Shown piece by piece: positions 4,700-35,623 of a stretch of DNA of 64,000 nt. A model generated the notes under the pieces. It had not been told where the DNA came from. It was given only the letters and a program-made list of their open reading frames with translations, and searched no databases. Numbering within the stretch: position 1 is the stretch's first letter; each line of letters opens with the position of its first letter. The DNA is from a virus (taxonomy: Duplodnaviria > Caudoviricetes): the IMG/VR virus record IMGVR_UViG_3300031992_000030. The stretch is one strand, 5' to 3'. Both the position numbers and the translations under genes were made by a program.

Positions 4700-4966
4700 T
4701 TACCTCCAACTTGATCTAACTATCCAGTGCTTTCTTCCTCGTTCAAGATACAAAATACCGTGATCATCAAGGTCATACTCTACCATACTATCAAGCGTAG
4801 CCATAGCCTCTTCCTTTGTGTCGCAAACTATATCACTATGCAAAGTCAAGTTGCCGTGATATCCATTACTAAGACCAGGGGTATACGCAAACGCGTTCAA
4901 GTGTCTAAGTATCTTAGATTCAGAAGTATTAAAATCATATGTAGTATATCTGTAATTAAGTAACAT
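4700..4966 (-). CDS. Hypothetical protein
   Basis: Tightly packed ORF in operon. Confidence 0.55.
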   Translation of the reverse strand: MLLNYRYTTYDFNTSESKILRHLNAFAYTPGLSNGYHGNLTLHSDIVCDTKEEAMATLDSMVEYDLDDHGILYLERGRKHWIVRSSWR

Positions 4967-4968
4967 AT

Positions 4969-5286
4969 TCAGTTCACCCCCATTATCTTGTTCTCGTTCT
5001 TGAGTGTCGCATCGACCCTCGCCGCAAGCTCTCCATAAGTTAAAACCCTATTTTGATGCTCGTCAAAATTACCATTTTTAAACTCGAATAAAAAATCTTC
5101 GTAAGTGTAATTATCATCACACTCACAAAAATTAACTTCTTGTTTACAATGGATACAATAAAGTCTTTTTAAATGTCCTCGTTCTCGATACTGATTTCGT
5201 TTCCGAGCGACACTTATACCCTTATTCCCGCACTTGCAACAATAAAATTCGTGCGAGAAATCAAAGCCTCTGTTTTGTTTTCCCAT
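4969..5286 (-). CDS. Zinc-binding hypothetical protein
   Basis: FYCCKCG...GHLKRLYCIHCK; consensus promoter just upstream. Confidence 0.65.
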   Translation of the reverse strand: MGKQNRGFDFSHEFYCCKCGNKGISVARKRNQYRERGHLKRLYCIHCKQEVNFCECDDNYTYEDFLFEFKNGNFDEHQNRVLTYGELAARVDATLKNENKIMGVN

Positions 5287-5320
5287 TTATTATCACTTCC
5301 TTTATTTTTTCTATACATAT

Positions 5321-5349
5321 ATTATATCATAAAAAAATAAGTCTGTCAA
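5321..5349 (-). promoter_or_regulatory. Consensus sigma-70/sigma-A promoter (representative of 30 or more similar - strand promoters in the window)
   Basis: TTGACA-17 nt (with extended TG)-TATAAT followed by ATGTATAGAAAA. Confidence 0.8.
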
Positions 5350-5398
5350 GGTAAATTTTTATAATAAAAAAAGGGACTCATTACTGAGTCCCTACTGT

Positions 5399-6634
5399 TT
5401 AACTTTGTGGATAATAACTATTTATTAATTCTTGAGCATAATTATACTCTTCTTTTGTACTTCTTATAAGAGAGAAAATCTTGTTTCCTGTCTCTTCATC
5501 TGGTGTAACTAAATATACTTGTTTAATTAATGTCATACAATCTTGCAAGTCCTGTTTCAAATTAGCGACTGTAGCATCAAATTCTTCTTGTATAGCATAA
5601 TTTCCAAAATTATTATGTGTTTGAGGCTCAAGAGTGCAGAAAGTAAAATATGTATTATAGCCTACGATACCATCATGTTCGTATACATAATCTATGAGAG
5701 TTTTCATTTGTCCATTTGTATCATTTGCTACCGGTTTTGCCTCTTTAACTCTTTGTACTAAAGCGGTTAATAAACTCTCTGTCTGCCATTTGGTTCCAGA
5801 TGGTTCACCAGAGATAGTAGTACCTTGAATATAAGCGTTTTGTGCGTCGATAGCATTAGCTAAAAGTATATTTGATACATAATTCTGTAAATAATTTGTT
5901 TGAAGACCGCTCTTAAGGTCGGCTACATCCTCTAAAGATTCATAAGTAAAATCAATATACACAGGAATTTCGGTAGCACTTGTAATTAAATTATTATATA
6001 CACCATATGTAGTATTAAAAGAGTCAATCAAGTTCTTTTGAGCCTGATATTCTGTATCCCAAGAGTGGACACTATCTATACCAAATCTAACTGTTTTAAA
6101 TTTATAGTCAAAGTTATACTTTTTGGTATTCCAAGTGCTTTTTTGGGTAATATCAGGGTTATCTATATTATTAGAATAAATAGCAACCAATTCATCGCCT
6201 AAACTTTTCATTTGGGTTCTGTATTCAGAATTTGAGTTTTCATATACAGTAGTATAGTTATGTTGATTATCTTGAGCATACATATATTCCATATACTCAG
6301 CCATTTCTTGCAACCATGCGGCAGCTTCTTGGGTTCTCCACATAATACCTTTTGTACTATTTGCCCAGATATACCACTCTGCACCGGTTTCATCAACAAG
6401 AATTATTTTATCAAATTTGTTATTTTCTTTTGCTTCTTCAATTTCTTGTTTTATAGTTTTGTTATTATCAGAAACACCAAATTTGGAAAAAATTGCTTTT
6501 CCTATATCTCTTAAAGAAATTTTTCTTGAAGCCTTTGCTCTATTTGAATTTAATGTGCAAATTTCAAGAGTATCACTTGAATTTACAACATCTGAACTTA
6601 CAGAAGTAAGTTGTGATATTTTCTTTTGTGGCAT
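5399..6634 (-). CDS. Putative virion fibre/accessory structural protein
   Basis: N-terminal KKISQL motif shared with neighbouring fibre genes; hairpin terminator at 5370-5394. Confidence 0.55.
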   Translation of the reverse strand: MPQKKISQLTSVSSDVVNSSDTLEICTLNSNRAKASRKISLRDIGKAIFSKFGVSDNNKTIKQEIEEAKENNKFDKIILVDETGAEWYIWANSTKGIMWRTQEAAAWLQEMAEYMEYMYAQDNQHNYTTVYENSNSEYRTQMKSLGDELVAIYSNNIDNPDITQKSTWNTKKYNFDYKFKTVRFGIDSVHSWDTEYQAQKNLIDSFNTTYGVYNNLITSATEIPVYIDFTYESLEDVADLKSGLQTNYLQNYVSNILLANAIDAQNAYIQGTTISGEPSGTKWQTESLLTALVQRVKEAKPVANDTNGQMKTLIDYVYEHDGIVGYNTYFTFCTLEPQTHNNFGNYAIQEEFDATVANLKQDLQDCMTLIKQVYLVTPDEETGNKIFSLIRSTKEEYNYAQELINSYYPQS

Positions 6635-25097: not shown

Positions 25098-25889
25098 TTA
25101 CTCATAAAGATAAAAAATCTTTTCATCTTCAAGTCTGATGCAAGCCAAGTTTCCGTTACGGCCATCCTCATCGTCTGGATAATTCTTTCCGTACACCAGG
25201 CCGCAATCTATATTTATAAAACGACGATTTCTTTCGTTATATAAAGTACAAACTTTACCTTTATTATAAAACATTTCGGTCGGTATAATGGTTGGTGTAT
25301 GACCAAAAATTATTGTTGCATTTGGTTTTCCGCCATATTTAATTCCCTCTTCTCTTGCCCAAATATAAAAATCTTCTATATCTTCAGCAAGATAATCAAA
25401 AGGTTTTTCTTCTGTAAAAGCAGTAAAGTCTTCTGGTGAGATAAAACCGCCATGAATAACAATAAATTCTTTACCATTTATTTCTAAATCAAAATAATAG
25501 GGCATATCAGTAATCATCTTGTTCCAACGCTGGAAATCAGTAGCACTTAAATTATGTTCATTTACAAGTTTTTCTACTGTACCATAATAATCATATACGC
25601 CACTATTCCATACATCTTCAAATTGTATCACTTCACTTTTATTATGAGCATTATTAAAAATCTTACTACAATATCTTGCAAAATCTATATCATGATTGCC
25701 CTTGATAAACTTAACTCCTTTTGGTTTACTATGAGCATATTCAAGCATTTCGTATGACTGAGGTCCACGATCCACAATATCACCCGCAATAATAAGTTCA
25801 TCTACTTCTGGGTTAAAATTAATTTTATTTAACATTTGTTGAAATTCATTATAACAGCCGTGAATATCAGCCATAACATAAGTAGACAT
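25098..25889 (-). CDS. Calcineurin-like metallophosphoesterase (PPP Ser/Thr phosphatase family)
   Basis: DIHG, GDIVDRG, KGNHD, HGG, FGHTP, IDCG motifs. Confidence 0.92.
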   Translation of the reverse strand: MSTYVMADIHGCYNEFQQMLNKINFNPEVDELIIAGDIVDRGPQSYEMLEYAHSKPKGVKFIKGNHDIDFARYCSKIFNNAHNKSEVIQFEDVWNSGVYDYYGTVEKLVNEHNLSATDFQRWNKMITDMPYYFDLEINGKEFIVIHGGFISPEDFTAFTEEKPFDYLAEDIEDFYIWAREEGIKYGGKPNATIIFGHTPTIIPTEMFYNKGKVCTLYNERNRRFINIDCGLVYGKNYPDDEDGRNGNLACIRLEDEKIFYLYE

Positions 25890-26761: not shown

Positions 26762-27253
26762 CTACTTACTATACTTATTAGCAATACCACTTGCGGTATA
26801 ACTATAAGGCTTAATCAAACAAGTGTAACCGCAAGCAGTTACCCACTTTGTGATTTCATTTATTAACATAGAAGTCTTTCCATCTTGTCCAATATCACAA
26901 TGAATTTGGAAAGTTAAGTCGAGATTATTTATATCAATATCATATTCATATAAAGCCAACTCTAACTTATCAACCAAACCATTGGCAATCTCAAGACTTC
27001 TTGATGTTTCGGTACTGATTTTTTGCTTCAAATTAGAAATCTTATGCATATACTCTATGTTATAGAAATATATACCACCATTTCCTTGTCTATGTACCGC
27101 TATTACCTCAACCATTTTTGTTTGTCTATGGTTTTGGCTATCAGTACCAACAGTGAACTCATAAGTTGCATTAGGTTGGTCAGCGATGTACTTAGCTATC
27201 TTGTTAATAATTTGATCTTCGGTCATTTCTTGACCAGATGCTGACCTAAACAC
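26762..27253 (-). CDS. RNase H-like YkuK/DUF458 family nuclease
   Basis: VGTDSQ...HRQGNGGIYFY...ETSRSL...IHCDIG..GKT...IKPYSYTAS.IANKYSK. Confidence 0.8.
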   Translation of the reverse strand: MFRSASGQEMTEDQIINKIAKYIADQPNATYEFTVGTDSQNHRQTKMVEVIAVHRQGNGGIYFYNIEYMHKISNLKQKISTETSRSLEIANGLVDKLELALYEYDIDINNLDLTFQIHCDIGQDGKTSMLINEITKWVTACGYTCLIKPYSYTASGIANKYSK

Positions 27254-27457: not shown

Positions 27458-27466
27458 GTAAATAAA

Positions 27467-27577
27467 TGGTGCACGAGGTAGGACTCGAACCTACACACTA
27501 TCCATAGTATCTAACATATACCGCGAATCTAATATTAGACTTGTGGATTAGCCGTCTTCCTATTGCGGCACTCGTCC
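27467..27577 (-). ncRNA. tRNA-like RNA with expanded, anticodon-less arm
   Basis: Acceptor GGACGAG/CTCGTGC + ACCA, D-arm, variable hairpin, GTAGG-TTCGAGT-CCTAC; ~40-nt irregular stem instead of 7-nt loop. Confidence 0.6.
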
Positions 27578-27584
27578 ATGAATT

Positions 27585-28084: not shown

Positions 28085-28186
28085 ATGACGCTTTAAAGAG
28101 CCTCCCATAGGCGATTACAAAATTGAATGGCTTGTAATATAAGAATCGAACTTATTGTTATTATTTTGTATTGCTGTAAGCGTCAT
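28085..28186 (-). ncRNA. CAGCAA-family Y-RNA-like ncRNA 1 (circularly permuted tRNA module, YrlA-like)
   Basis: ATGACGC/GCGTCAT terminal stem, CAGCAA, T-arm ATAAG-TTCGATT-CTTAT, acceptor ATTACAA(GCCA..)TTGTAAT, D-arm GCCT-ATGGG-AGGC. Confidence 0.7.
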
Positions 28187-28201: not shown

Positions 28202-28293
28202 ATGACCCGACCTACGGAATCGAACCGATATATTTGATTTGCAGTCAAATTGTTTACCATAAACGAGCGTTTTGATTTGCTGATAAGGGTCAC
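28202..28293 (-). ncRNA. CAGCAA-family ncRNA 2 (D, anticodon GCA and T arms; acceptor replaced by CAGCAA stem)
   Basis: GTGACCC/GGGTCAT stem, CAGCAA, GTTT-ATGGT-AAAC, TTTGA-CTGCAAA-TCAAA, CGG-TTCGATT-CCG. Confidence 0.7.
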
Positions 28294-28645: not shown

Positions 28646-28704
28646 ATGACGCACATAAAAGAGAATTCAGGTCTTTTTTGTTTTTGCTTTGCTGTTGGCG
28701 TCAT
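28646..28704 (-). ncRNA. CAGCAA-family ncRNA 3 (minimal)
   Basis: ATGACGC/GCGTCAT stem, CAGCAA, internal AAAAGACCTGA shared with ncRNA 5. Confidence 0.6.
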
Positions 28705-29301: not shown

Positions 29302-29377
29302 TGGTGCGGGTGACAGGGATCGAACCTGCGGCTTTCTGCTCCCAAAGCAGACACTCTTCCACCTGAGCTACACCCAC
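29302..29377 (-). tRNA. tRNA-Pro(TGG)
   Basis: TCTGC-TTTGGGA-GCAGA; CCA. Confidence 0.9.
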
Positions 29378-30950: not shown

Positions 30951-32447
30951 TTATTTCTCCACAAAAATCTGTGCATATCTGTCACTTAAGATAGTAGCAA
31001 GCATAGCCTCATAAGGTGTCTTATCAAGGTTAGCAAGTAAAGTCTTAAATGTAGTTGCAGAATGACCTGACAAAAGTTGGACGCCCTTTCTGTTAGCATC
31101 TGCGTGGAATGTATTAGACTGACTATTTACATTCCAGAAGATAACGTTAGGGATTTCATAGCCATATACAGCAAACTTTCTTTTCCAATCATCATAGAAT
31201 GTACCGGAAGTGCGAACCGCTCCGTTAATCTGCATATCAGAGATAATTACGAGTGCCTTAGGAAGTTCCTTAGCATTTACTCTATTTCTTACCGCAGTAT
31301 CGAGAATTACCTCAAAAGCAGCGTCGAGGTTTGTAGACATATTCCAGTCTGCGCTAACCATATTACGAATTCTATCACACACAGTTGCTCCTGCAATAGA
31401 AACCAACTTAGGTGAAGAAGAGAATGTCATAAACTTGTTATGGAAAGGGCCGGCCGCACGCTCTGCAAAATACATAGCCAAGCCTACTGAAGAAGCCAAA
31501 GGCAACTTATTGCAACAAGTCATTGAACCAGATACATCTGCCATAACAAGTACATTAGTACCATCTTCAACATAGTTAGGGAGAGCCTTCCACTGAGCCT
31601 CAAGTACTGAATCAGCAGGTATGTCGTTATAACCCCATATACTGCGGTTAAGATTCAAATACTTCTGAACAATATCATAAGGGAAAAGGGTATTAGCCTT
31701 AATCTCCTTTTTACCAGAAGTCACGTCATTAAGATACTCAACAAATCTTTCGCCGTCCTTGTGGGAGAACAAGACACGATACTTTGTCATAGCATTAGAA
31801 GGAACCTTATCATATGCAATAGTGCTAAACTCATTTGCAGAGATAGCGATCTCAACAATATTAAGGTACTTACGAAGTGCCTTAAGAGGTATCTTAAATG
31901 AACGAACATTCTTATATCCCAACTTCTGGGAAGTCAAAATGCCTAACTTACGAGTTGTAGGTGAAGATGCATCAGGTGTCTTGATCCACTTTGCAAGAAG
32001 TGAAACAGGCTTACCCGCGAGCATTGCCGCTCTATCCTTTTCAAACTGTGCCTTCATAACTTTCCACATATCATCTTCACACTTGGTTCCAATAAGGAAA
32101 TACAAGTCATCAAAACGACCATAAAAGCCGATAAGGGCAATATTAGGTCTTACAATCTCAGGGTATCTATCTGCTGCATATCTGAGCAAAGTACGGAAAG
32201 TATCTCTCTCTCCAAGTCCCTCACGAATATCTCTTCCATAGAAGAGAATCTTTGCGGCGAGCTCCTTGTCTTCTGCGCAGGCCTTGTCGAAAAGCTCGTA
32301 TCTACGAGCATCGGAAGTATTACGAAGTGCTCCAATAGTTGCAAAAAGGTCTACAAGACCTTCTCCTGAAGATGATAAGCACTTTCTGCCATTAGCAGTA
32401 TAAGTCCAAGAAGTTTCTCTGCCGAGTAAATCTGCAAAATTTGCCAT
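30951..32447 (-). CDS. DUF2828-type protein: helical (TROVE/Ro60-like) domain + vWA domain
   Basis: TANG, LFYGRDIREGLGER, GRFDDL, SLLAKW, YDKVPSNAM, LFPYDIV, EAQW, MIDAS DVSGSM, FMTFSSSP, ISDMQ, IFWNV, LSG. Confidence 0.85.
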   Translation of the reverse strand: MANFADLLGRETSWTYTANGRKCLSSSGEGLVDLFATIGALRNTSDARRYELFDKACAEDKELAAKILFYGRDIREGLGERDTFRTLLRYAADRYPEIVRPNIALIGFYGRFDDLYFLIGTKCEDDMWKVMKAQFEKDRAAMLAGKPVSLLAKWIKTPDASSPTTRKLGILTSQKLGYKNVRSFKIPLKALRKYLNIVEIAISANEFSTIAYDKVPSNAMTKYRVLFSHKDGERFVEYLNDVTSGKKEIKANTLFPYDIVQKYLNLNRSIWGYNDIPADSVLEAQWKALPNYVEDGTNVLVMADVSGSMTCCNKLPLASSVGLAMYFAERAAGPFHNKFMTFSSSPKLVSIAGATVCDRIRNMVSADWNMSTNLDAAFEVILDTAVRNRVNAKELPKALVIISDMQINGAVRTSGTFYDDWKRKFAVYGYEIPNVIFWNVNSQSNTFHADANRKGVQLLSGHSATTFKTLLANLDKTPYEAMLATILSDRYAQIFVEK

Positions 32448-32567: not shown

Positions 32568-32627
32568 ATATTCTTAACTTTTGTATATATATTATATCAA
32601 AATTTTTAATCTTTGTCAATTAGAATT

Positions 32628-32897: not shown

Positions 32898-33021
32898 TGA
32901 TGGAAACTGTTGGACTCGAACCAACACTACTGCGTCCCAAACTGCATAGAAAAATAGGTTGCTGTCTTAATCACAAAATATGATTGTGTCATTAAGCGTG
33001 CTACCCTTACACCAAGTTCCC
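32898..33021 (-). ncRNA. CAGCAA-family ncRNA 6: tRNA scaffold with the CAGCAA stem inserted in the anticodon arm
   Basis: Acceptor GGGAACT/AGTTTCC, D-arm, AATCAT-ATTTT-GTGATT-AAGA-CAGCAA, GTTGG-TTCGAGT-CCAAC; ends ATCA not ACCA. Confidence 0.65.
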
Positions 33022-33311: not shown

Positions 33312-33394
33312 ATGACCCCAAGAGCGGCTTCTTCAAAACCGCTTAAAAAACAATGGCGAAGAAAAAATCTAAATTGTTTTGCGGTTGAGGTCAT
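33312..33394 (-). ncRNA. CAGCAA-family ncRNA 4 (CCGCAA variant)
   Basis: ATGACCTC/GGGGTCAT stem, AA-CCGCAA, internal AGCGG/CCGCT hairpin. Confidence 0.55.
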
Positions 33395-33402
33395 AAAAAA
33401 AT

Positions 33403-33560
33403 ATGATTGGTAGGGACTACTTAATCAGGTCTTTTGGCGAGTCTACCCCAGTAAGCCATTTCTGGACAAAAGTTTCGTAGGAACGATTTTAGCACTTTTG
33501 TCAACTTGCATTTCCCTATAAATCATCTGTAATAATAGGATTTGCTGTACAACCAATCAC
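33403..33560 (-). ncRNA. CAGCAA-family ncRNA 5 (multi-hairpin)
   Basis: GTGATTGGT/ACCAATCAT stem, CAGCAA, internal CCTAT/ATAGG and GACAAAAGT/ACTTTTGTC hairpins, AAAAGACCTGA. Confidence 0.6.
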
Positions 33561-33925: not shown

Positions 33926-34010
33926 TTTATCATATCTCTTAACTTTCTTACATATATATTATATCATATTTTTTGAAAGTTGTCAATTACGATTTTTTGG
34001 TTAAGAATTT

Positions 34011-34828: not shown

Positions 34829-35623
34829 TTATTCCAATATCTCTTTTAACATCTTTGCCCTAAGAGGATTACGTAATTTTCTATATGCTCTCATTTCTAT
34901 CTGTCTAATACGCTCCTCACTTCTCTGAAATGTCTTAGCTATCTCTGCAATAGACTTTTCCTCAAAAAAGTGCATTGTAAGAATCTGTGCTTCTCTATCT
35001 GAGAGAGATCCAAATATCTTCTTGATCCTGTCCATACGATCCGCTTCTTCAGCCGCCGCAACCGGAGATTCAATAGAAGTATCCTCAATCAATACATCAA
35101 AACCATCATCTTCATCATCACTAATTTGAGCATTTAAACTTGTAGGCTCATGCATCAAAACCATCAATTCTTTTACTTTATCAAGTTCGAACTTAGTCTT
35201 GTCTGCTATTTCTTCATCTCTTGGTTCTCTCTGTAAAGTCGCATATAACTCTCTCTTAGCATCTTTAATTTTCTTCAAATCAGCACTTACATTTTCAGGT
35301 CTTGTAATCATATGTCCCTGTTCATATAATGCTCTTGTTATTCTCTGTCTTATCCACCAAGTGGCGTGTGTACTAAACCTACATCCTCTTTCGGGATTAT
35401 ATCTCTTTGCCGCTTCAATGAGGCCTACATTTCCCTCTTGGATTAAATCCAAAAGGGAAAGACCTCTATTCATAAACTTCTTTGCAATAGAAACGACCAA
35501 TCTCAAGTTACTATTTATTAACTTTTCTGTATCTCCTGATTTCGCAGCCTCTACTTCTTCACCAAAAGTAAGAAGAGGAAACTGAGAAATTTCTTTCAGA
35601 TACATCTGAATAGATTCGTCCAT
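34829..35623 (-). CDS. Phage-encoded sigma-70 family (RpoD-like) sigma factor
   Basis: DESIQMYLKEI, NLRLVVSIAKK, DLIQEGNVGL, FSTHATWWIRQ, ERIRQIE..A.RKLR. Confidence 0.95.
   Translation of the reverse strand: MDESIQMYLKEISQFPLLTFGEEVEAAKSGDTEKLINSNLRLVVSIAKKFMNRGLSLLDLIQEGNVGLIEAAKRYNPERGCRFSTHATWWIRQRITRALYEQGHMITRPENVSADLKKIKDAKRELYATLQREPRDEEIADKTKFELDKVKELMVLMHEPTSLNAQISDDEDDGFDVLIEDTSIESPVAAAEEADRMDRIKKIFGSLSDREAQILTMHFFEEKSIAEIAKTFQRSEERIRQIEMRAYRKLRNPLRAKMLKEILE

What the first reader, a model, noticed from the sequence alone, without database searches (positions are those of the whole stretch)
32898..33021. Third topology: normal tRNA scaffold with the CAGCAA stem inserted in the anticodon arm
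Acceptor (GGGAACT/AGTTTCC), D-arm and T-arm are in normal order. The anticodon region holds the family's 3' strand (AATCAT), a 5-nt loop, then the 5' strand and motif (GTGATT-AAGA-CAGCAA). This is the circular permutation of the 28085 element. It ends ATCA, not ACCA. Three geometries of one handle argue for a modular, selected RNA family.
Basis: partly seen in the sequence, partly recalled or inferred. Interest (0 to 1): 0.78.

Follow-up and report, generated by a model that had tools for sequence, protein, structure and literature searches.

The report
tRNA-shaped partner RNA of phage Ro60-like protein
This 124-base gene in a gut phage's tRNA cluster is built like a complete tRNA but carries an extra hairpin-plus-ACAGCAA "handle", and it is most likely not a decoding tRNA but a partner RNA of the Ro60-like (DUF2828) protein encoded just downstream.

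Summary
On the minus strand, 33021-32898 has a 7-bp acceptor stem, D arm, T arm, the hairpin AAUCAU-AUUUU-GUGAUU, then AAG-ACAGCAA, and ends A-UCA. ARAGORN misses it. Rfam's tRNA model scores it 40.3 bits (cut-off 29).

It is not a one-off. RNA-only pattern scans gave 51 distinct elements of this build in phage contigs, rumen and gut metagenomes and Lachnospiraceae MAGs. The acceptor, D and T stems covary. The hairpin core and ACAGCAA are nearly invariant.

In 23 of about 41 loci a DUF2828 gene starts 50-500 nt downstream on the same strand; here the gap is 451 nt. The predicted fold of that protein matches Ro60 over its full length. Open-ended versions of the same handle flank DUF2828 genes in Listeria P100, Bacillus Tsamsa, mycobacteriophage Loadrie and E. 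coli Felix O1-type phages.

Two corrections. Between ACAGCAA and the T arm lies an anticodon-arm-like hairpin (loop UUUGGGA), so the handle is better read as an extra arm. Two of three orthologues end ACCA.

My reading is a Y-RNA-like tRNA mimic in ordinary tRNA order, matured like a tRNA. Binding to the protein is inferred, not shown.

This scan had already found the same topology in other genomes.

The parts
32898..33021 (-). Whole tRNA-order handle RNA (124 nt). It starts 1 nt after the CCA of tRNA-Ile(gat) and ends 6 nt before tRNA-Arg(acg).
   Evidence: Rfam tRNA 40.3 bits; 51 homologues.
33015..33021 (-). Acceptor 5' strand GGGAACU.
   Evidence: Pairs with 32902-32908. All 7 pairs covary across 25 sequences.
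32998..33012 (-). D arm GUGU-AAGGGUA-GCAC.
   Evidence: All 4 D-stem pairs show double changes.
32969..32985 (-). Family-conserved handle hairpin AAUCAU-AUUUU-GUGAUU.
   Evidence: Consensus hairpin of A1 and A3. The core is invariant and the 7th pair covaries.
32959..32965 (-). ACAGCAA motif, 9 nt after the first G of GUGAU.
   Evidence: 48 of 51 homologues read ACAGCAA.
32966..32996 (-). Alternative long hairpin (CUUAAU/AUUAAG outer stem). Rfam aligns its outer stem as the anticodon stem.
   Evidence: It is seen only in the window's subgroup. One compensatory change occurs in L077 (ACA/UGU to ACG/CGU).
32927..32949 (-). Anticodon-arm-like hairpin CUAUGCAG-UUUGGGA-CGCAGUAG, with two bulges.
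   Evidence: The loop is kept in orthologues L053, L056 and L077 while the stem is rearranged.
32909..32925 (-). T arm GUUGG-UUCGAGU-CCAAC.
32898..32908 (-). Acceptor 3' strand AGUUUCC, discriminator A, then UCA.
   Evidence: Orthologues L056 and L077 read ACCA. All 31 tRNAs of the window encode CCA.
30951..32447 (-). DUF2828 + DUF7788 (vWA) protein of 498 aa, Ro60-like by predicted fold; the presumed protein partner.
   Evidence: (PHROG 850 'RNA-binding protein').
28085..28186 (-). Open-ended handle RNA with a permuted tRNA-like body (YrlA topology).
28202..28293 (-). Open-ended handle RNA in which the handle takes the place of the acceptor stem of a tRNA-Cys-like body.
28646..28704 (-). Short open-ended handle RNA.
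33312..33394 (-). Open-ended handle RNA with the variant motif ACCGCAA.
33403..33560 (-). Open-ended handle RNA, 158 nt.
33958..33986 (-). Consensus sigma-70-type promoter (12 of 12, TG-extended) upstream of the tRNA and handle stretch that contains the element.
32591..32619 (-). Consensus promoter upstream of tRNA-Ser and the DUF2828 gene.

Best explanation
The element is a non-decoding, tRNA-shaped small RNA of the CAGCAA-handle family. This is the RNA family that travels with Ro60-like DUF2828 proteins in phages.

It is transcribed as part of the polycistronic tRNA array. I infer that its ends are cut like those of a tRNA: RNase P at G1, then 3' trimming and CCA completion. The acceptor, D and T arms give it the stable L-shaped body and the processing signals. 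The 6-7 bp hairpin followed by ACAGCAA is the shared handle. I infer that this handle is the docking site of the Ro60-like protein encoded 451 nt downstream.

The result would be a Y-RNA-like particle wired in ordinary tRNA order. Cutting a permuted, YrlA-type member at its closed acceptor hairpin would give the same arrangement of parts.

Shown here: the structure, its conservation, the genomic linkage and the Ro60-like fold. Inferred: processing, binding and biological role. The role is probably RNA surveillance or counter-defence.
For: 1. tRNA scaffold. Rfam tRNA scores 40.3 bits. The element sits 1 nt after the CCA of tRNA-Ile and 6 nt before tRNA-Arg.

2. Conservation. 51 distinct elements were found by RNA pattern alone. 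On 25 diverse sequences 96% of cells pair, against 71% in shuffles and 38-48% when partners are slid. Double changes occur in 7/7 acceptor, 4/4 D, 3/5 T and 3/7 hairpin pairs. ACAGCAA is kept in 48 of 51, with a constant 4-nt spacer after GUGAU.

3. The hairpin is structural. L004:2533-2651 has a different stem sequence in the same place, followed by CAGCAA.

4. Linkage. A DUF2828 gene lies in about 30 of about 41 RNA-found loci, and 23 have its start 50-500 nt downstream on the same strand.

5. Protein fold. The model (pLDDT 88.6) has Ro60 structures as its ten best PDB matches (9kop, 9l5y, 2i91, 1yvr, 2nvo), with E from 1e-6 to 1e-4 and TM 0.46-0.61 over about 500-570 columns. The residues DxSxS, T and D expected of a MIDAS site are invariant in A2.

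6. Breadth. The same stem-plus-CAGCAA handles flank DUF2828 genes in Listeria P100, Bacillus Tsamsa, Mycobacterium Loadrie and E. coli phage dune, and in distant IMG/VR loci.

7. 3' end tracks the genome's tRNA habit. In the window's clade tRNAs encode CCA in 31/31, 8/8 and 6/6 cases, and the elements end ACCA or AUCA. In other clades tRNAs encode CCA in 0-10% of cases and the elements have none.

8. Precedent. M. smegmatis YrlA is cut by RNase P and receives CCA while bound to Rsr (PMC4201824).
Against: Expression, ends and binding are therefore untested.

The handle differs from the known Ro60 site: ACAGCAA here, against GNCGAA(N0-1)G or CGAA in YrlA and Yrl RNAs.

One complete 332-kb phage (G006) keeps three such RNAs but has only a 35-residue remnant of the DUF2828 gene.

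In this particular element thermodynamics favours a different hairpin from the family consensus.

The acceptor stem and the hairpin core were used to pick the homologues, so their pairing statistics are partly circular. The D stem was not used for selection.
Confidence: 0.6

Rival explanations
1. It is a working tRNA, Pro-like with anticodon UGG, that tolerates a large extra arm and decodes on the ribosome.
For: All tRNA arms are present. The loop UUUGGGA is identical to that of the phage's tRNA-Pro(UGG) at 29302-29377. Orthologues end ACCA. In L013b-type members the anticodon arm and 5-nt variable loop are canonical.
Against: The anticodon-like stem here has two bulges and only 1 nt before the T stem. 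The phage already has tRNA-Pro(UGG). Within one orthologous group (acceptor UGUGCCU) the 'anticodon' reads GUG, GGG or UGG. In the AGUGAGG group it reads UUG, UAA, UUU or UAU. Some members have no such arm (L030, L052:753-848). ARAGORN does not call the element.
Confidence: 0.08
2. The handle is an intron-like insert that is excised, leaving a normal tRNA.
For: In several members, removing the insert in silico would leave a canonical cloverleaf (L013a, L013b, L001b). With its intron option ARAGORN finds a solution in 46 of 51.
Against: ARAGORN's intron solutions disagree between close orthologues: Cys for the window and L077, Ser for L053 and L056. The insert lies at position 26/27, not 37/38. 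No group I intron or bulge-helix-bulge features were seen, and Rfam reports only tRNA. The same handle exists as free-standing RNAs with no tRNA to restore. The handle sequence is far more conserved than the tRNA parts.
Confidence: 0.05
3. It acts in cis as a leader or processing signal for the DUF2828 transcript. For example, it could be an autoregulatory binding site or an RNase P cut site that frees the mRNA, with no lasting partner RNA.
For: In 23 loci the element ends 50-500 nt upstream of the DUF2828 start on the same strand. Here tRNA-Ser lies in the gene's leader.
Against: In the window a perfect consensus promoter (32619-32591) lies between the element and the gene. In L009 and L037 the element is about 1.3 kb downstream of the gene, and in L001 it is 8.6 kb away. 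G006 keeps the RNAs without the gene.
Confidence: 0.12
4. The handle is recognised by some other factor, such as a host or phage nuclease, a ligase or a modification enzyme. On this reading DUF2828 is only a neighbour.
For: G006 lacks DUF2828 but keeps the RNAs. Listeria P100 has RtcB ('tRNA splicing ligase') and a phosphohydrolase nearby. The handle does not look like the known Ro60 site.
Against: The handle and DUF2828 pairing persists from 35% to 100% protein identity and across phages of Firmicutes, Actinobacteria and Proteobacteria. No other gene was seen to be constant. G006 still carries a remnant of the gene, which indicates recent loss.
Confidence: 0.12
5. It is a decaying tRNA pseudogene disrupted by an inserted repeat.
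For: The anticodon stem is imperfect, CCA is mutated to UCA, and ARAGORN does not call it.
Against: The scaffold covaries and is preserved in 51 distinct sequences from many samples. Elbow nucleotides are intact (U8, A14, G18G19, UUCGA). Orthologues keep the loop UUUGGGA with a re-paired stem.
Confidence: 0.03

Closest known systems
YrlA-type bacterial and phage Y RNAs bound by Ro60/Rsr (Chen et al. 2014, PMC4201824; Rfam RF02553; Thermus phage phiLo Yrl1/2, PMC12135203)
   Same: A small RNA is encoded next to a Ro60-fold protein. It combines a protein-docking helix with an adjacent conserved unpaired motif and a tRNA-like module (T arm, D arm, 7-bp acceptor stem). M. smegmatis YrlA is cut by RNase P and gains CCA, which gives the same free acceptor end that this element has by design.
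   Different: Here the RNA ends are at the acceptor stem (ordinary tRNA order) and the docking helix is capped by a loop. In YrlA the ends are in the docking helix and the acceptor is capped. The motif is ACAGCAA, not GNCGAA(N0-1)G. The Rfam YrlA model does not match the element. The protein is DUF2828, not Pfam TROVE.
Bas63 gp130, the Ro60-like protein of Felix O1-type coliphages (PhageMaP preprint, 10.1101/2024.10.10.617714)
   Same: The related coliphage dune carries a DUF2828 homologue (34.7% identity to the window's protein) placed, like gp130, directly upstream of a tRNA array. Equivalence to gp130 itself was inferred from that position, not tested. The preprint's authors speculated that some annotated tRNA genes are Y RNAs. 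They showed that deleting the gene sensitises the phage to the Ppl defence.
   Different: The preprint defined no partner RNA. In phage dune the handle RNAs lie in the spacers between the tRNA genes, and I saw no tRNA-order member there.
Class I RNAs of dictyostelid amoebae (Kjellin et al. 2021, PMC7919456)
   Same: A short stem joins the 5' and 3' ends. It starts with a conserved G and is followed at once by a conserved unpaired 11-nt motif whose near-invariant positions are T3, C6, C9, A10 and A11. From my memory of the earlier papers the motif reads CCUUACAGCAA. That fits the phage handles (UUA/UAA-CAGCAA).
   Different: Class I RNAs are 42-65 nt, eukaryotic, reported as unique to Dictyostelia, and have no tRNA body. 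I did not test this element with a Class I model, and the motif letters are not in the text I could read.
Class II (long-variable-arm) tRNAs, and archaeal or algal split and permuted tRNA genes
   Same: It is a five-arm cloverleaf with a second hairpin before the T arm. Within one family the same parts occur in permuted gene order.
   Different: There is no fixed anticodon, and no bulge-helix-bulge splice signals or joining step are evident. In permuted and split tRNA genes the pieces are rejoined into a normal decoding tRNA.

Membership tests
tRNA (Rfam RF00005) | Cloverleaf with acceptor, D and T arms that scores above the gathering cut-off. | tested here: met
   40.3 bits against a cut-off of 29, but only with relaxed filters. 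It was missed in the default gathering run.
tRNA (Rfam RF00005) | A 5-bp anticodon stem with a 7-nt loop directly after the D arm, and a fixed anticodon among orthologues. | tested here: not met
   Rfam aligns a 21-nt 'loop' and a 38-nt variable region. ARAGORN makes no call. Anticodon-like triplets vary within orthologous groups.
tRNA (Rfam RF00005) | A 3' CCA end, encoded or added. | tested here: inconclusive
   The window reads A-UCA and orthologues L056 and L077 read A-CCA. All 31 tRNAs of the window encode CCA. Addition or repair of CCA cannot be tested here.
YrlA (Rfam RF02553) | Match to the covariance model at 69 bits or more. | tested here: not met
   There is no match on the element. 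The best YrlA scores in the region are 18-19 bits and lie over ordinary tRNAs.
YrlA (Rfam RF02553) | GNCGAA(N0-1)G motif in the Ro60-binding stem. | tested here: not met
   The motif is absent. The conserved motif here is ACAGCAA.
YrlA (Rfam RF02553) | Encoded beside a Ro60 (TROVE + vWA) gene. | tested here: inconclusive
   The neighbour is Ro60-like by predicted fold but has no Pfam TROVE match.
YrlA (Rfam RF02553) | RNA ends lie in the protein-binding stem and the acceptor-like stem is closed by a loop. | tested here: not met
   The order is reversed here: open acceptor, capped handle.
CAGCAA-handle RNAs linked to DUF2828 (unnamed; not in Rfam 15) | A helix of 6-9 bp followed within 0-4 nt by unpaired (A)CAGCAA. 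| tested here: met
   AAUCAU/GUGAUU plus AAG plus ACAGCAA. The same layout is in 51 homologues and in the open-ended members.
CAGCAA-handle RNAs linked to DUF2828 (unnamed; not in Rfam 15) | Located near a DUF2828 gene. | tested here: met
   It lies 451 nt upstream on the same strand. The pattern is general.
Ro60 / TROVE proteins (for the neighbouring gene) | Helical-repeat ring plus a C-terminal vWA domain with MIDAS residues. | tested here: met
   The ten best Foldseek matches are Ro60 structures over the full length. DUF7788 is the vWA part, and VWA_2 is found on homologues. D304, S306, S308, T372 and D404 are invariant. This rests on a predicted model only.
Ro60 / TROVE proteins (for the neighbouring gene) | Match to Pfam TROVE (PF05731). 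| tested here: not met
   There is no TROVE match on the protein or in four related phage genomes. phmmer against PDB sequences finds nothing.
Dictyostelid Class I RNA | A 6-bp stem joining the RNA ends plus an 11-nt motif next to its 5' strand. | not tested
   Only the paper's description was compared. This element has a capped hairpin, not a terminal stem. No Class I model was run specifically; the permissive scan of all Rfam families over the region listed no such match.

The most novel reading that the evidence does not exclude
The tRNA-order handle RNAs are CCA-ended baits that can switch between two folds. The tRNA body, with real anticodon-type loops such as Pro, Asp and His, would draw in host tRNA-directed enzymes or defence nucleases. 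The handle would tether them to the Ro60-like ring for sequestration or for repair of damaged tRNA. In the window's subgroup the competing long hairpin would gate exposure of the handle. This would be a phage counter-defence particle built from a tRNA gene, related to the effect of Bas63 gp130 against the Ppl defence.
Probability: 0.15. Interest if true: 0.88.

Novelty: new variant of a known kind. Interest (0 to 1): 0.7.

Why it matters
Ro60 and its Y RNAs form a conserved but poorly understood RNA-surveillance particle. Their bacterial tRNA-like Y RNAs have so far been described with the RNA ends in the protein-binding stem.

This element shows that a large, undescribed branch of the system exists: DUF2828 proteins with CAGCAA-handle RNAs, present in hundreds of cultured phages. 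That branch builds the same parts into a complete tRNA gene that needs nothing beyond the cell's tRNA-processing enzymes.

This has three practical consequences:
- It explains a class of 'missing' or odd tRNA-like genes in phage tRNA arrays.
- It gives a concrete RNA candidate for a protein family one member of which has been shown to counter a bacterial defence.
- It makes binding, processing and function directly testable in tractable phages: Felix O1-type coliphages, Listeria P100 and mycobacteriophages.

Tried and rejected
- **Megablast to cultured phages.** A search of the region found nothing.
- **Own genome.** No whole genome is held for this window.
- **First viral-contig pattern.** It returned 35 loci, of which about 21 were chance matches inside coding sequence. 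I discarded them because they had no T arm.
- **Rfam's anticodon stem (CUUAA/UUAAG).** I rejected it as a family feature because it is absent from L062 and L075 and weak elsewhere. I kept it as an alternative fold for this subgroup.
- **First constrained-folding run.** It used wrong D-stem pairs, so I discarded it and redid it.
- **Canonical anticodon arm.** A test for one before the T arm showed it only in some subgroups (the script stopped early).
- **Kissing loops.** I considered pairing between the CUGUCCC and UUNGGGA loops of neighbouring elements. I dropped the idea because L036 and L080 have CUGUCAC.
- **ARAGORN intron mode.** It gave inconsistent solutions.
- **Literature.** Searches for DUF2828, and for Ro60 or TROVE with phage, found no description of the RNA family. 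Burroughs & Aravind 2016 was not held.

Full report
**Setting.** The window looks like part of a large phage genome of about 136-140 kb, judging by the contigs that hold identical or 87%-identical copies of its DUF2828 protein. It carries 31 tRNA genes on the minus strand between 22975 and 33771. The finding lies between tRNA-Ile(gat) (33100-33023) and tRNA-Arg(acg) (32891-32816). It starts one base after the CCA of tRNA-Ile and ends six bases before tRNA-Arg.

**The observation.** Read on the minus strand, the 124 nt hold:
- GGGAACU paired with AGUUUCC, a 7-bp acceptor stem;
- U8;
- a D arm, GUGU-AAGGGUA-GCAC;
- AAUCAU-AUUUU-GUGAUU, then AAG-ACAGCAA;
- a second hairpin, CUAUGCAG-UUUGGGA-CGCAGUAG;
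- a T arm, GUUGG-UUCGAGU-CCAAC;
- the tail A-UCA.

ARAGORN does not call the element. Rfam's default filters also miss it. With permissive filters the Rfam tRNA model scores 40.3 bits (cut-off 29, E = 1e-7). That alignment treats CUUAA/UUAAG as an anticodon stem around a 21-nt loop and the next 38 nt as a variable region. The composite hairpin-plus-CAGCAA pattern occurs once in the window against 0.01 expected. CAGCAA alone is not enriched.

**The family in the window.** Five open-ended RNAs share a terminal stem that begins RUGAY and ends RUCAU, followed by (A/U)C(A/C)GCAA. They lie at 28085-28186, 28202-28293, 28646-28704, 33312-33394 and 33403-33560. In 28085-28186 the body runs T arm, closed 7-bp acceptor-like hairpin with G-CCA, then D arm.

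**Conservation.** A relative of the DUF2828 protein in a 394-kb IMG/VR contig (L001, 65% identity) is surrounded by at least six open handles with covarying stems. It also has three elements in tRNA order.

Scans with RNA patterns alone gave 51 distinct tRNA-order elements. I ran them on viral contigs, one genome per species, and metagenomes. Genome hits are mostly Lachnospiraceae MAG contigs. Metagenome hits are largely from rumen and gut samples.

On 25 diverse sequences (A3), 96% of cells form pairs, against 71% in shuffles and 38-48% when the partners are slid. Double changes occur in all 7 acceptor pairs, all 4 D-stem pairs, 3 of 5 T-stem pairs and the outer 3 of 7 hairpin pairs. The inner four hairpin pairs never vary.

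The hairpin is 7 bp, usually with a tetraloop. GUGAU is always followed by 4 nt and then ACAGCAA (48/51). In most open handles the distance from the first stem base to ACAGCAA is likewise 9 nt.

The acceptor stem and hairpin core were selection criteria, so those figures are partly circular. The D stem was not a criterion.

An element from a distant clade (L004:2533-2651) has the same layout with an unrelated hairpin sequence (AUUGGGUA-GAAA-UAUUCAAU, GU, CAGCAA). This is good evidence that the hairpin is structural.

**Where the handle sits.** In several subgroups the stretch after ACAGCAA is a textbook anticodon arm with a variable loop. Examples are UUCUA-UUGUGGA-UAGAG plus AGGUC, and UUUCC-CUGUCCC-GGAAA plus AGGU with covarying stems. 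A further stem encloses the hairpin and ACAGCAA (GCAAA/UUUGC, UAUUU/AAAUA). In those members the handle is thus an added arm between position 26 and the anticodon arm.

In the window the corresponding hairpin has two bulges. Its loop UUUGGGA equals that of the phage's own tRNA-Pro(UGG), and all three orthologues (L053, L056, L077) keep it while the stem is re-paired.

The triplet at the anticodon position is not fixed within orthologous groups (GUG, GGG, UGG; or UUG, UAA, UUU, UAU). Some members lack the arm altogether. This argues against decoding.

**Two folds.** For this element ViennaRNA prefers a long hairpin (positions 26-56, -29.0 kcal/mol with the scaffold enforced) over the family hairpin (-25.5). 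L077 has one compensatory change in the inner stem of the long hairpin. The outer stem is confined to this subgroup, however. Which fold forms in the cell is open.

**The 3' end.** All 31 tRNAs of the window encode CCA. So do all tRNAs in the orthologous loci L053 and L077. The element ends A-UCA here and in L053, but A-CCA in L056 and L077. In the other clades tRNAs rarely encode CCA (0-10%), and their tRNA-order elements have none. The elements therefore follow their genome's tRNA 3'-end habit. This, together with the tRNA-like spacing in the array, points to tRNA-type maturation.

**The protein.** The ORF at 32447-30951 matches DUF2828 and DUF7788 and PHROG 850 'RNA-binding protein'. A model from 36 homologues (pLDDT 88.6, pTM 0.88) has Ro60 structures as its ten best PDB matches over the full length. 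These include Thermus phage phiLo, Xenopus and Deinococcus Ro60, with E from 1e-6 to 1e-4 and TM 0.46-0.61. Pfam TROVE and sequence search of the PDB find nothing. Homologues occur in 708 cultured-phage records, some annotated 'Ro-like RNA binding protein'.

**Linkage.** Among loci found by RNA pattern alone, about 30 of about 41 contain a DUF2828 gene. In 23 of them the gene starts 50-500 nt downstream of a tRNA-order element on the same strand. Whole-record searches agree.

Open handles flank the gene in four cultured phages and in distant IMG/VR loci:
- Listeria P100, three in tandem upstream of gp165;
- Bacillus Tsamsa;
- Mycobacterium Loadrie;
- E. coli phage dune.

The exception is G006, a complete 332-kb phage. 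It keeps three tRNA-order RNAs but only a 35-residue remnant of the gene.

**Transcription.** Perfect consensus promoters lie at 33986-33958 and 32619-32591, and a terminator follows the DUF2828 gene at 30967-30939, all on the minus strand.

**Literature.**
- YrlA RNAs are tRNA mimics beside Ro60. M. smegmatis YrlA is cut by RNase P and gains CCA. Their motif is GNCGAA(N0-1)G (PMC4201824).
- Phage phiLo Ro60 binds Yrl RNAs that carry a CGAA motif (PMC12135203).
- The PhageMaP preprint found Bas63 gp130 to be Ro60-like and located upstream of tRNA genes. The phage needs it against the Ppl defence. The authors guessed that some tRNA genes are Y RNAs.
- Dictyostelid Class I RNAs share the layout of a terminal stem followed by a conserved motif (PMC7919456).
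- I found no paper that defines the CAGCAA-handle family or its tRNA-order form. Rfam 15 has no matching family.

**Earlier scan notes.** Earlier notes of this scan report the same system and the same topology in other genomes. My tests here were made independently of them.

**Verdict.** This is a real, conserved, tRNA-shaped non-coding RNA. It is a new variant of the Ro60/Y-RNA theme, in ordinary tRNA order and with a different handle. Binding to the DUF2828 protein, tRNA-type processing and biological role remain inferences.

Noticed in passing
window 27466-27580 (-): An odd tRNA-like gene (Rfam tRNA 22.6 bits, below the cut-off). Its acceptor-like stem GGACGAG/CUCGUGC is followed by UG-CCGCAA, and it ends with a T arm and ACCA. 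It may be a further handle RNA in which the acceptor stem itself serves as the handle stem.
   Followed up: partly
L036 / G006 147427-147531 (IMGVR_UViG_3300011005_000632): A complete 332-kb phage with terminal repeats keeps three tRNA-order handle RNAs and an open handle. Of the DUF2828 gene it has only a 35-residue C-terminal remnant containing a stop codon, which looks like a recent gene loss.
   Followed up: partly
L087 (E. coli phage dune, MN850636) about 4704-5500: Four handle RNAs lie in the tRNA spacers just downstream of the DUF2828 gene dune_109. Their stems carry a conserved AGA/G internal loop and then NUU/UUA-CAGCAA. The fourth has a permuted T arm, closed acceptor and D arm. None is annotated.
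   Followed up: partly
L088 (Listeria phage P100) 3661-3927 and 6780-8063: Three tandem handle RNAs sit directly upstream of gp165 ('RNA-binding protein', DUF2828). An RtcB-type 'tRNA splicing ligase' and a metal-dependent phosphohydrolase lie 1-3 kb downstream.
   Followed up: no
L089 (Bacillus phage Tsamsa) 2961-3049: An unannotated 89-nt tRNA-like element lies between tRNA-Thr and tRNA-Ser. It has a 7-bp acceptor stem, an anticodon-like hairpin (loop CUUGAAA) and then UGGU-CAGCAA before the T arm. It could be a missed tRNA-Ser or a tRNA-order handle RNA.
   Followed up: no
L001 11487-12260: A class II tRNA-like gene appears to be split by about 700 nt that encode an HNH-type endonuclease ORF. 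This may be an intron-bearing tRNA.
   Followed up: no
window 34195-34167, 33986-33958, 32619-32591, 30930-30902 (-): Four perfect 12-of-12 sigma-70 consensus promoters with TG extension occur within 4.6 kb, all facing the tRNA and DUF2828 genes. The phage also encodes its own sigma-70-family protein at 34829-35623.
   Followed up: no
L013, L054, L059, L001 (adjacent tRNA-order elements): Neighbouring elements carry loops CUGUCCC and UUNGGGA, which are complementary over 4 nt (UCCC/GGGA). L036 and L080 have CUGUCAC, so a kissing interaction is not supported throughout.
   Followed up: partly
window 26762-27253 (-) and 25098-25889 (-): An RNase H-like (PF04308, YkuK-type) gene lies inside the tRNA array. 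Beside the array is a calcineurin-like phosphoesterase with a weak match to a PHROG named 'RNA ligase'. Both may relate to RNA processing or repair.
   Followed up: no
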